DNA from: Escherichia coli
GTDB lineage: Bacteria; Pseudomonadota; Gammaproteobacteria; Enterobacterales; Enterobacteriaceae
Reading direction: 5' to 3' (one strand)
DNA: 64,000 nucleotides
NCBI RefSeq assembly: GCF_003334355.1
Contig: NZ_QOWP01000002.1
Made by a program: the position numbers and the translations under genes. Shown in pieces: positions 59,927 through 60,425 of this stretch (positions are counted from its first letter, which is position 1; the number at the start of each line of letters is the position of its first letter). The notes beneath the pieces are model-generated. The model worked only from the letters and a program-made list of their open reading frames with translations. It ran no database searches and was not told where the DNA came from.

Positions 59927-60169
59927 TTATGCTCCGGTAGTGAACAGGTCTAACGCTTCCTTCGATTTACGCACCGCTTCGATAGTGCGGGTCGTGATAT
60001 CTGAGTTAGCGCCACCTGACTGGAAGTGAATTTTGAATAGCTCAAGCTTCAGCTCGTCAGTGCCAATGAATTGAAATGCTTCTTCTGCGGCTGCGTTCTG
60101 GTTCATGACCAGTTTGTAAATCTCTAACTGGAATTTCTGTTCTTCAGTCATGGGAATAATCTCTGCCAT
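59927..60169 (-). CDS. Small hypothetical protein upstream of terminase
   Basis: 80-aa acidic ORF tightly packed with the terminase small subunit gene. Confidence 0.35.
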   Translation of the reverse strand: MAEIIPMTEEQKFQLEIYKLVMNQNAAAEEAFQFIGTDELKLELFKIHFQSGGANSDITTRTIEAVRKSKEALDLFTTGA

Positions 60170-60425
60170 TGTTGGCTCCGTTTATCCGTTAAAAGGGATA
60201 TCAGTTAAGTTATCCCGTGTAGGGTATAAGCCATTGTCGAGACCACTCATTGAATGGCCTCTGCAATAACCGATGTCTTTCCATCAGTCCGCCACCACAA
60301 AGAATCTTTTTTGCCATAAGGCAGGAGGTTCATCTTTCAGTGGCTGCCAGTGTTATTTCCCCACTTACTGGCTTGGGTTGTTTCGTGGTACTGCCGTAAT
60401 GCAAAAACTGGATTAACCTGCGAAA

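What the first reader, a model, noticed from the sequence alone, without database searches (positions are those of the whole stretch)
59927..60425. Small acidic ORF and non-coding gap upstream of the terminase genes
An 80-aa ORF is tightly packed against the terminase small subunit gene, preceded by a 256-bp non-coding gap. The position suggests a packaging accessory or regulatory role, but no motif is recognisable.
Basis: inference. Interest (0 to 1): 0.2.

Follow-up and report, generated by a model that had tools for sequence, protein, structure and literature searches.

The report
Empty accessory-gene slot upstream of terminase
The small ORF belongs to a known but uncharacterised phage protein family (DUF2560, P22 ORF80), and the "gap" before it is a conserved, folded non-coding stretch that in many related phages holds an extra gene such as an anti-CBASS sponge; here it is empty, which is mostly ordinary phage mosaicism.

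Summary
An 80-aa, mildly acidic ORF lies at 60169-59927 on the minus strand. Its stop codon is 2 nt before the terS start, and a 256-bp stretch with no gene (60425-60170) precedes it.

The ORF is a full-length member of Pfam DUF2560 (P22 ORF80, HK620/CUS-3 hkbM). It is under purifying selection and its function is unknown. It always lies between the lysis and packaging genes, but next to at least three different terminase types. HK106 keeps the non-coding block and has no DUF2560 gene. A terminase-specific packaging role is therefore not supported.

The gap is not a neutral spacer. It is about three times less diverse than ORF80 third codon positions, and it folds better than shuffled sequence. 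Pieces of it occur, unannotated, in 2552 of 5426 complete E. coli genomes. It is the empty state of a cargo slot: in about 40% of related variants the same joint carries an unrelated gene, most often an Acb4-family (PF13876) anti-CBASS sponge.

The left arm carries the core of the Proteo-phage-1 RNA motif, but it scores below Rfam's threshold, so membership is only possible.

Overall this is a known protein family plus a new example of a phage accessory region. Interest is modest.

The parts
59927..60169 (-). ORF80: an 80-aa DUF2560 family protein (P22 ORF80, HK620/CUS-3 hkbM). The stop codon is included in the coordinates.
   Evidence: ORF list. Pfam PF10834 E 1.3e-43 covering model positions 1-72 of 72. 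phrog_571, unknown function. dN/dS 0.04-0.20. AlphaFold2 model of four helices, pLDDT 70.
60170..60425 (-). The 256-bp non-coding 'gap': the empty state of an accessory-gene slot, transcribed as part of the late operon (transcription is inferred).
   Evidence: 200 phage records match it, mostly at 90-99% identity. Pieces occur in 2552 of 5426 E. coli genomes with no feature annotated under the matches listed. Fold z-score -3.1. No promoter on the sense strand.
60272..60399 (-). Left conserved arm of the slot. Conservation starts sharply at about 60399-60397 whatever the upstream gene is.
   Evidence: Alignment of 70 distinct empty variants. BLAST breakpoints. Nucleotide diversity 0.027 against 0.072 at ORF80 third codon positions.
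60342..60374 (-). Core shared with the Proteo-phage-1 RNA motif: AAGCCAGUAAGUG ... AAUAACACUGGCAGCC. GCCAGU (60372-60367) can pair with ACUGGC (60351-60346).
   Evidence: Rfam RF03044 hit 60413-60342, 21.7 bits against gathering score 42, E 0.08. The pattern occurs once in the window and in 0 of 100 shuffles. nhmmer E 0.0065, the only hit under the inclusion threshold. Model R2 top hit 60402-60282, 18.2 bits.
60291..60344 (-). Long hairpin (P3-like): GCCACUG.AAAGA ... UCUUU..GUGGUGGC, with an apical GCC-UUAU-GGC stem-loop. It contains the A-run 60312-60307.
   Evidence: MFE and centroid structures agree. With the next hairpin the z-score is -4.2, and 0 of 200 shuffles fold as well. R2 aligns it to the canonical P3 helix. 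The common variants at 60323, 60318 and 60316 fall in positions that the predicted fold leaves unpaired.
60307..60312 (-). A6 run whose length varies (5, 7 or 8 A) in 7 of 117 distinct variants.
   Evidence: The indels would frameshift every small ORF that crosses the run, on either strand (60317..60210 minus, 60333.. minus, 60273..60416 plus). This argues against coding.
60268..60289 (-). Hairpin ACUGAUGG-AAAGAC-AUCGGUU, which spans the left cargo junction.
   Evidence: Fold. The junction ...GGACTGATGGAAAGACATC| is shared by most cargo-bearing variants.
60249..60271 (-). Joint of the empty slot. This is where relatives carry cargo of about 100-1330 bp.
   Evidence: 47 of 117 distinct variants have an insert here, with several different junctions. 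Cargo census.
60170..60248 (-). Right conserved arm. It contains the hairpin GGGAUA-N10-UAUCCC (60216-60195) followed by UUUU (60194-60191), then the Shine-Dalgarno GGAG (60179-60176) of ORF80.
   Evidence: Sequence. Fold. Diversity 0.019. This arm alone is conserved in Stx2 phages and other phages. In HK106 it precedes an HNH gene instead of ORF80.
59484..59924 (-). Context: the terminase small subunit gene, which starts 2 nt after the ORF80 stop.
   Evidence: phrog_309, E 1e-67. CUS-3 annotation.
60426..60956 (-). Context: the upstream 176-aa gene. Its sequence matches the KilA-N proteins annotated in related phages. It is the variable neighbour on the 5' side of the slot.
   Evidence: phrog_129, E 1e-60. 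Other phages have Rha, hkbL or GIY-YIG genes at this position.

Best explanation
The interval is the accessory module that lies between the lysis cassette and the packaging genes in the late operon of a CUS-3/HK620-type P22-like prophage. It has two parts.

(1) ORF80 is a real, selected gene of the DUF2560 family. It has its own Shine-Dalgarno sequence and is probably read from the Q-dependent late transcript. Its stop codon is 2 nt before the terS start, so ribosomes probably pass straight on to terS. That is ordinary operon packing. I read it as a portable late accessory protein, not a partner of one terminase. From its neighbours (Acb4 and Acb2/Tad1-type sponges in the same interval of relatives) I infer that a host-directed or defence-directed role is the most likely. 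This step is inference only.

(2) The 256-bp gap is the empty state of a gene slot. Two conserved arms (60399-60272 and 60248-60170) flank a joint (60271-60249). At that joint relatives carry one of at least five unrelated gene cassettes, most often an Acb4-family anti-CBASS sponge. The arms probably work in two ways. First, they offer homology for swapping cargo by recombination between lambdoid phages. This is inferred from the several different junctions and from the same arms occurring in P22-like, HK97-like and Stx phages. Second, they act as RNA within the late transcript. The left arm folds into hairpins and carries the core of the Proteo-phage-1 motif. The right arm supplies a hairpin with a U4 tail and the ribosome-binding site of whichever gene follows. 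What the RNA does (processing, stability, read-through or translation control) is not shown.
For: ORF80:
- Family membership and purifying selection.
- Synteny with different terminase types.
- Absent from HK106, which keeps the non-coding arms.

The slot:
- Of 117 distinct variants, 70 are empty, at least 27 carry an Acb4-family gene, 4 a 61-aa gene (one more has it together with Acb4), 4 a 72-aa gene, 2 an 80-aa gene, 1 a 246-aa protease-like gene plus a 59-aa ORF, and the rest are unclassified.
- The commonest cargo matches Pfam PF13876, E 5.5e-35. Its best PDB sequence match is Acb4 9e4w, E 0.007. PF13876 is the Acb4 family (bioRxiv 10.1101/2024.12.30.630793).
- A Serratia prophage has an Acb2/Tad1-hairpin gene in the same interval.
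- There are several distinct junctions.

Constraint on the arms:
- Diversity is 0.027 and 0.019 in the arms, against 0.072 at ORF80 third codon positions in the same 56 sequences.
- Against P22 the left part of the gap (query 29-215) differs at 7.4% of sites, against 13.4% of ORF80 synonymous sites.

Not coding: the A-run length varies, and I saw no Shine-Dalgarno sequence before the small ORFs I inspected.

Structure: z-scores of -3.1 and -4.2.

RNA motif core.

Canonical relatives also lie between or ahead of phage operon genes: endolysin-[RNA]-holin..terS, [RNA]-holin..terS, [RNA]-RecT-exonuclease, and [core]-terS-like-terL.
Against: - There are no expression or phenotype data for ORF80 or the gap.
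- No fold or family link ties ORF80 to any known anti-defence protein. PADLOC gave nothing. PDB Foldseek gave nothing better than E 3. BFVD gave only uncharacterised proteins.
- The strict position of DUF2560 just before the packaging genes is not explained by a defence role, and it still allows a general packaging or head-related function.
- The RNA homology is weak. The Rfam score is half the gathering score. A model built from class-A elements alone does not find the site. With the broader model the second-best hit in the window, which I take to be spurious, scores 15 bits against 18 for this site.
- Within enterobacterial variants two common substitutions break predicted loop-tail pairs: U to A at 60367 in 22 of 70 variants, and U to C at 60349 in 10 loci.
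- The first hairpin of the Rfam model is not conserved among enterobacterial variants.
- Low diversity of the arms could partly reflect recent spread by recombination rather than function.
Confidence: 0.6

Rival explanations
1. ORF80 is a packaging accessory or regulator that works with the terminase small subunit, and the gap regulates terminase expression.
For: DUF2560 is the last or nearly last gene before terS in every context examined. In this window its stop codon is 2 nt before the terS start. The gap is conserved and folded.
Against: The family accompanies at least three unrelated terminase systems, and both pac-type and lambda GpA-type packaging. Other small genes often lie between it and terS. 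HK106 has the non-coding block but no DUF2560. The same non-coding arms precede Acb4-family genes or an HNH gene in other phages, so they are not specific to terminase. No similarity to any known packaging protein was found.
Confidence: 0.15
2. The left arm is a true, functional, highly diverged member of the Proteo-phage-1 RNA family. On this view it is a cis-acting element of long phage operons, for example a read-through (put- or nut-like) or processing signal, and that function is the main reason the gap is conserved.
For: The core loop and tail sequences are shared: one match in the window and 0 of 100 shuffles. Three different profiles each put their best match in the window, or their only sub-threshold match, at this site. 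A long hairpin follows GGCAGCC in the same register as the canonical P3 helix, which shows covariation in the canonical set. Relative to the canonical GCCGG:CCGGC pairing, the window has GCCAG:CUGGC, a change on both sides. Canonical elements lie within or ahead of late and early phage operons, and one contig has two copies.
Against: The score is below Rfam's gathering score (21.7 against 42). The class-A model misses the site. Hairpin 1 is absent or not conserved, and hairpin 2 is reduced to 3 base pairs. Common enterobacterial variants break the loop-tail pairing. No function is known even for the canonical motif. The put comparison rests on my memory only; the HK022 record does not annotate put sites.
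Confidence: 0.3
3. The gap is a neutral scar. On this view a cargo gene was deleted, and the remaining sequence is conserved only because these prophages are recent relatives.
For: Most matches are 95-99% identical, like the neighbouring genes. The short ORF starting at 60317 shares its first codons with ORFs that run into cargo or into DUF2560 in other phages. The 23-bp joint is slightly more variable, with diversity 0.032.
Against: The arms are 2.7 to 3.8 times less diverse than ORF80 third codon positions in the same genomes. The arms occur separately in distant phage groups with different neighbours, for example only the right arm in Stx2 phages and only 60399-60351 in SPN3UB-type phages. 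The fold is better than shuffles. The empty form is the commonest state, at 70 of 117 variants.
Confidence: 0.12
4. The gap encodes one or more unannotated small proteins. Candidates are the 35-aa ORF 60317..60210 and the 28-aa ORF from 60333 on the minus strand, and the 47-aa ORF 60273..60416 on the plus strand.
For: These ORFs exist and are kept in many relatives because the DNA is conserved. Some phage records annotate hypothetical proteins here.
Against: No Shine-Dalgarno sequence precedes them. Length variation in the A-run frameshifts all of them in 7 of 117 variants. Cargo junctions cut them at different points. PGAP annotates no feature under the matches listed from E. coli genomes.
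Confidence: 0.04

Closest known systems
Pfam DUF2560 (PF10834): P22 ORF80, HK620 and CUS-3 hkbM, PHROG 571
   Same: Full-length match, the same 80-aa size, and 99% identical to P22 ORF80. It has the same position between the lysis and packaging genes.
   Different: Nothing differs: it is a plain member. The family has no assigned function, and I found no paper that studies it.
Phage accessory regions and morons of lambdoid phages. These are variable genes between conserved neighbours (Juhala et al. 2000 and Clark et al. 2001, from my own knowledge; accessory regions in bioRxiv 10.1101/2023.04.06.535777).
   Same: Unrelated cargo genes alternate at one joint between conserved sequences. A known counter-defence family (Acb4) is among them.
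   Different: Here the conserved boundaries are non-coding arms of about 80-130 bp, not core genes. The window holds the empty state. I found no own promoter, and only a weak hairpin with a U4 tail, so it does not meet the classical moron definition.
Proteo-phage-1 RNA motif (Rfam RF03044)
   Same: It shares the loop sequence AAGCCRG..AGUG and the tail AAC.CYGGCAGCC with similar spacing. It is in a phage, between operon genes, and is followed by a long hairpin, like the extended canonical element.
   Different: It scores 21.7 bits against a gathering score of 42. Hairpin 1 is not conserved and the hairpin 2 stem is cut to 3 base pairs. It is AT-richer (49% GC in the hit, against about 55-67% in the canonical matches). 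Canonical examples come from other, GC-rich phage contigs.
Acb4 anti-CBASS sponge family (PF13876, Phage_gp49_66)
   Same: This is the commonest cargo of the slot in relatives.
   Different: It is not present in this window, where the slot is empty. ORF80 is unrelated to it.
HK022 put RNAs and lambda nut sites: cis-acting read-through signals at the heads of phage operons. This is from my own knowledge and is a lead, not a test.
   Same: Two adjacent stem-loops in the Rfam model, separated by one unpaired base. Occurrence in both early and late operons of phages, and two copies in one contig.
   Different: I could make no sequence or structure comparison, because put sites are not annotated in the HK022 record. 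In the window the strong terminator (61128-61109) lies upstream of the element, not downstream of it.

Membership tests
Pfam DUF2560 (PF10834) | Significant full-length match to the family HMM | tested here: met
   E 1.3e-43, residues 5-76 on model positions 1-72 of 72. 92 of the 93 database relatives carry PF10834.
Pfam DUF2560 (PF10834) | Small stand-alone phage or prophage protein of about 80 aa in the late region | tested here: met
   80 aa, lying between the lysis and terminase genes in all 8 contexts read.
Terminase accessory or packaging factor | Co-occurrence with one terminase type | tested here: not met
   Found with Terminase_3, with Sf6-type terS plus Terminase_6, and with lambda GpA plus DUF1441. 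Absent from HK106, which keeps the upstream arms.
Terminase accessory or packaging factor | Requirement for DNA packaging | not testable with these tools
   This needs a deletion mutant. I found no published test. The 'ORF80' of the Sp5 paper is an unrelated 2793-aa protein.
Proteo-phage-1 RNA (RF03044) | Score at or above Rfam's gathering threshold (42 bits) | tested here: not met
   21.7 bits, E 0.08 on 301 nt. Canonical loci score 59-83 bits.
Proteo-phage-1 RNA (RF03044) | Conserved loop AAGCCGG..AGUG and 3' tail AAC.CCGGCAGCC | tested here: met
   Present with one substitution in each element (G to A, and C to U). One match in the window and 0 of 100 shuffles. nhmmer E 0.0065.
Proteo-phage-1 RNA (RF03044) | Hairpins 1 and 2 of the consensus structure | tested here: inconclusive
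   In the window hairpin 1 pairs only weakly, and its 5' half lies outside the conserved block in other enterobacterial variants. The hairpin 2 stem is reduced to CCC/GGG.
Proteo-phage-1 RNA (RF03044) | Detection by an independent covariance model of the extended element | tested here: inconclusive
   The class-A model R1 gives only a 5.4-bit partial hit. The all-class model R2 puts its best hit in the window here, at 18.2 bits, but the next hit in the window scores 15 bits.
Moron (classical definition) | A gene inserted between sequences that are adjacent in related phages | tested here: met
   This holds for the relatives: cargo of about 100-1330 bp sits at one joint. The window itself is the uninterrupted state.
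Moron (classical definition) | Own promoter upstream and own terminator downstream of the cargo | tested here: not met
   No sigma-70-like site on the sense strand of the gap. The right-arm hairpin (6 bp, 10-nt loop, U4) is not reported by the terminator scan.
Phage accessory region or counter-defence hotspot | Alternating unrelated genes at one locus, including known counter-defence genes | tested here: met
   At least five unrelated cargo types. Acb4-family genes are in at least 27 of 117 variants. An Acb2/Tad1-hairpin gene lies in the same interval of a Serratia prophage.

The most novel reading that the evidence does not exclude
The conserved left arm (60399-60272) could be a functional, unannotated enterobacterial branch of the Proteo-phage-1 RNA family. 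That would make it a cis-acting structured RNA of long phage operons, serving read-through, processing or translation control. It would sit immediately upstream of a swappable counter-defence gene slot, and some part of the gap is present in nearly half of all complete E. coli genomes. On the same reading, DUF2560 would be a further resident counter-defence or host-takeover protein of that island.
Probability: 0.25. Interest if true: 0.6.

Novelty: new member of a known kind. Interest (0 to 1): 0.3.

Why it matters
The ORF itself adds nothing new. It is a member of a catalogued family of unknown function. The useful results are three.

- A stretch that annotation pipelines leave blank in thousands of E. 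coli and Salmonella prophages is under constraint. It marks a precise place where lambdoid phages exchange small cargo genes, including Acb4-type sponges. The slot could therefore be mined for new counter-defence or defence genes, such as the 61-aa, 72-aa and 80-aa cargos and the protease-like cargo.
- DUF2560 becomes a reasonable candidate for testing against defence systems rather than in packaging assays.
- The Proteo-phage-1 motif, whose function is unknown, is shown here to be part of a larger element of about 230 nt that lies within or ahead of late and early phage operons. A possible diverged relative lies in genetically tractable phages (P22, HK620, HK022), and that would make its function testable.

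Tried and rejected
- tRNA or tmRNA in the gap: none.
- Rfam at gathering score: nothing. The other weak Rfam hits (asX2, RcsR1, snoU25, Yar_1) are chance matches, or matches to the Rz-proximal terminator.
- Sense-strand promoter or standard intrinsic terminator in the gap: none. The one terminator-like site (60307-60328, plus strand) is the apical part of the P3 hairpin read on the other strand.
- Small proteins in the gap: rejected.
- ORF80 function by homology: NCBIfam and PADLOC gave no hit. PDB sequence search gave only noise. An AlphaFold2 model searched with Foldseek against PDB gave nothing better than E 3. BFVD gave only uncharacterised phage proteins. A profile search of 1.84 billion representatives found only 73 relatives, nearly all small proteins, and that library carries no names.
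- Acb2-like versus Acb4-like cargo proteins: no pairwise similarity.
- Literature:
  - DUF2560 appears in two unrelated papers.
  - 'orf80 P22 terminase' led to the Sp5 paper, whose ORF80 is a different 2793-aa protein.
  - 'Proteo-phage-1' is not in the searchable library, and the supplement of the paper that I recall as describing the motif (PMC5737381) is not held.
  - The sponge preprint does not mention DUF2560, P22 or HK620.
- Comparison with HK022 put RNAs: not possible, because put sites are not annotated in the record.
- The class-A-only covariance model: it fails to find the window element, and even the other divergent classes score poorly.
- Upstream regions of distant DUF2560 genes (Serratia, Shimwellia, metagenomic): they lack the full core and show at most GGCAGC-containing fragments.
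Full report
**Setting.** All genes around the finding are on the minus strand, in the order of a lambdoid late operon. 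Reading from high to low coordinates they are:
- a Q-type antiterminator, by its correspondence to the annotated CUS-3 and HK620 genes (63848-63225)
- holin, lysozyme, Rz and Rz1 (62549-61302)
- a 176-aa KilA-N-type gene (60956-60426)
- the gap (60425-60170)
- the 80-aa ORF (60169-59927)
- terS (59924-59484), terL and portal

The DNA is 97-98% identical to phage CUS-3 and HK620 over this stretch. A tRNA-Arg(CCU) gene lies at 39776-39850. I take this to be a CUS-3-like P22-like prophage; that is an inference.

**The observation.** It is correct to the base.
- The ORF is 80 aa, pI 4.7, net charge about -5.
- Its TAA stop (59929-59927) is 2 nt before the terS ATG. The terS Shine-Dalgarno sequence (GGAG, 59935-59932) lies inside the end of the ORF.
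- The ORF has its own GGAG 6 nt before its ATG.
- The gap is 256 bp. It has no tRNA, no sense-strand promoter, no Rfam match at gathering score, and only short mechanical ORFs.

**What the ORF is.**
- It is a full-length member of Pfam DUF2560 (E 1.3e-43) and of PHROG 571, unknown function.
- It is the gene called hkbM in HK620 and CUS-3 and ORF80 in P22.
- It is a real gene: dN/dS is 0.04 against P22 and 0.11-0.20 against homologues 50-64% identical.
- The family is small. There are 93 clusters in a 5.8-billion-protein collection, and the named ones are all from Enterobacterales. A profile search of 1.84 billion representatives found 73 relatives.
- An AlphaFold2 model has four helices at moderate confidence (pLDDT 70). 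It matches no solved structure (best E 3.2) and only uncharacterised phage proteins in BFVD.
- PADLOC, NCBIfam and PDB sequence searches gave nothing. I found no paper that studies the family.

**Is it a packaging accessory?** In the eight contexts I read, the gene always lies after the lysis genes and before the packaging genes. The terminases differ, though:
- CUS-3-type terS here
- a P22 gp3-type small subunit with Terminase_3 in a Serratia prophage, and Terminase_3 again in a metagenomic contig
- Sf6-type terS with Terminase_6 in Shimwellia
- lambda-type GpA with a DUF1441 protein in another contig

One to three other small genes often lie between it and terS. HK106 keeps the entire non-coding block but follows it with an HNH gene and has no DUF2560. 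So the protein does not track one terminase system. The tight junction with terS in this window is ordinary operon packing; in HK620 the same kind of junction is made with hkbN instead. A terminase-specific role is not supported. A general role in head or packaging biology cannot be excluded.

**What the gap is.** Four results show it is not a neutral spacer.

1. It is very widespread. The gap alone matches 200 phage records. Pieces of it occur in 2552 of 5426 complete E. coli genomes, up to five places per genome, with no feature annotated under the matches listed.

2. It is mosaic in a structured way. Conservation begins sharply at about 60399-60397 whatever gene lies upstream. Sub-blocks occur alone in other phage groups: 60399-60351 in SPN3UB-type Salmonella phages, and about 60267-60181 in Stx2 phages.

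3. It is constrained. Among 56 distinct sequences that have both the uninterrupted gap and ORF80, diversity is as follows.

| Region | Nucleotide diversity |
|---|---|
| Left arm | 0.027 |
| Right arm | 0.019 |
| ORF80 codon position 3 | 0.072 |
| ORF80 codon position 1 | 0.011 |
| ORF80 codon position 2 | 0.004 |

4. It folds. The whole gap has MFE -76.6 kcal/mol, z -3.1. The two central hairpins (60345-60268) have z -4.2, and no shuffle out of 200 folds as well.

It is not protein-coding. I saw no Shine-Dalgarno sequence before the small ORFs I inspected. An A-run (60312-60307) that all of them cross varies in length in 7 of 117 variants. Cargo junctions cut them at different points.

**The slot.** I collected 164 related loci from viral contigs, giving 117 distinct versions. 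In 47 of them an insert of about 100-1330 bp lies between window positions about 60272 and 60248. The commonest insert encodes a protein of about 112-126 aa:
- It matches Pfam PF13876, E 5.5e-35.
- Its best PDB sequence match is Acb4 (9e4w, E 0.007).
- PF13876 is the family of the anti-CBASS sponge Acb4 (bioRxiv 10.1101/2024.12.30.630793).

Other inserts encode a 61-aa protein (phrog_5425), a 72-aa protein (phrog_924), an 80-aa protein with no family, and a 246-aa trypsin-like protein plus a 59-aa ORF. P22 has a different 640-bp filling with a 104-aa ORF on the opposite strand. A Serratia prophage has an Acb2/Tad1-hairpin gene in the same interval.

The left junction is nearly always after ...GGACTGATGGAAAGACATC. 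The right junctions differ, and one cargo is joined 15-17 nt further right. That looks like recombination within short conserved sequences rather than site-specific insertion. The window carries the commonest state, the empty one (70 of 117 variants). The interval between lysis and packaging genes is thus an accessory region. The two non-coding arms are its portable boundaries, and DUF2560 is its most constant resident.

**The RNA-like element in the left arm.** Rfam gives one weak match to Proteo-phage-1 (RF03044) at 60413-60342: 21.7 bits against a gathering score of 42, E 0.08 for the 301 nt searched. The score comes from two conserved single-stranded elements, AAGCCAGUAAGUG and GAAAUAACACUGGCAGCC.

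I retrieved canonical elements from viral contigs with a pattern taken from the Rfam consensus. They score 59-83 bits. In the largest class the Rfam motif is the 5' third of a conserved unit of about 230 nt. That unit has a further hairpin (P3), is preceded by a terminator, and ends in its own terminator. The three helices are 97.7% paired, with changes on both sides at three pairs of P2 and six pairs of P3.

By PHROG annotation these elements lie in the following positions:
- between endolysin and holin, ahead of terS
- ahead of holin..terS
- ahead of a RecT-exonuclease operon
- in a divergent class, directly ahead of a terS-like gene and terL

One contig has two copies.

Tests of whether the window element belongs to the family gave mixed results.

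| Test | Result |
|---|---|
| Core pattern allowing the two substitutions | One match in the window, 0 of 100 shuffles |
| nhmmer profile of 67 canonical elements | The only hit under the inclusion threshold is here, E 0.0065 |
| Covariance model from class A alone (R1) | Does not find it: 5.4-bit partial hit, with unrelated hits up to 13 bits |
| Model from all classes (R2) | Best hit in the window is here: 60402-60282, 18.2 bits, rough E 8e-5, with the window's long hairpin aligned to P3 |
| Same model, next-best hit (which I take to be spurious) | 15 bits |

Relative to the canonical pairing GCCGG:CCGGC, the window has GCCAG:CUGGC, a change on both sides. But two common enterobacterial variants break this helix. 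Hairpin 1 is not conserved among enterobacterial variants. My conclusion is that a diverged relative is possible, at about one chance in three to one in two. Membership is not established.

**How it most likely works.**
- Shown: gene identity, selection on the ORF, the slot and its cargos, constraint on the arms, predicted folding, and the sequence core.
- Inferred: the whole interval is transcribed from the Q-dependent late promoter. There is a strong intrinsic terminator right after Rz (61128-61109), so read-through by modified polymerase would be needed.
- Inferred: the arms serve as recombination homology for cargo exchange and as RNA structure that frames the cargo and presents the ribosome-binding site of the next gene.
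- Inferred: ORF80 acts on the host or on host defences. This last step rests only on its neighbours in the accessory region. I give it roughly 0.3-0.4.

**Comparison and novelty.** The ORF is an ordinary member of a known family of unknown function. The slot is a new, well-defined example of a known kind of feature, the phage accessory region or mosaic joint. It does not meet the classical moron definition, because it has no promoter of its own and no clear terminator. The RNA-like element would be a new variant of a known motif if confirmed. Nothing here is categorically new, so interest is modest.

Noticed in passing
window 61109-61128 (minus strand): A strong intrinsic terminator (8-bp stem with 6 GC pairs, followed by a T-run) lies right after Rz, inside the late operon. 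It is upstream of the KilA-N gene, ORF80 and terS. The HK106 record annotates a terminator at the same relative position. The weak Rfam hits asX2 and RcsR1 overlap this site.
   Followed up: partly
L209 5008-5240 and other class-A loci (L214, L225 and others): The Rfam Proteo-phage-1 model (82 nt) covers only the 5' third of a conserved unit of about 230 nt. That unit has an extra hairpin with covariation (6 pairs changed on both sides), further conserved sequence, and its own terminator. Another terminator lies directly upstream.
   Followed up: partly
L229 232-371 and 1881-1994; L261 1636-1708: One viral contig carries two copies of the extended Proteo-phage-1 element on the same strand, 1.5 kb apart. 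In L261 a tRNA gene lies 9 nt upstream of the element.
   Followed up: no
L207 (P22) 2266-2580, opposite strand: P22's version of the slot is filled by about 640 bp. It contains a 104-aa ORF on the strand opposite to the late operon, and the record consulted does not annotate it.
   Followed up: no
L330 (ST64T) 1881-2237; proteins P0001-P0014: ST64T orf-118, and many database 'DUF2560' entries of 102-129 aa, appear over-extended at the N terminus. Orf-118 starts at the ATG that corresponds to window 60317, in the non-coding left arm, and the DUF2560 match begins at residue 27.
   Followed up: partly
L203 3371-3652 (Serratia marcescens prophage): A 93-aa protein with the Acb2/Tad1 hairpin domain (PF24729) lies between Rz and DUF2560. 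This is a second known sponge family in the same interval.
   Followed up: no
L117 (viral contig), cargo of about 1330 bp in the slot: This cargo encodes a 246-aa trypsin-like protease homologue (phrog_9683 and phrog_11383) and a 59-aa ORF. It may be a defence or toxin-type module rather than a sponge.
   Followed up: no
window 60170-60425 compared with E. coli genomes: Pieces of the gap occur in 2552 of 5426 complete E. coli genomes, up to 5 places per genome and 29 places on plasmids. No feature is annotated under the matches listed.
   Followed up: partly
window 39776-39850 (plus strand): A tRNA-Arg (anticodon CCU) gene, the only tRNA in the window. It is probably the argW attachment site of this CUS-3-like prophage. 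The integration site of CUS-3 is from my own knowledge.
   Followed up: no
window 19542-19667 (minus strand): Both home-made covariance models give this unrelated region 13-15 bits. That sets the noise level for judging the 18-bit hit at the finding.
   Followed up: no
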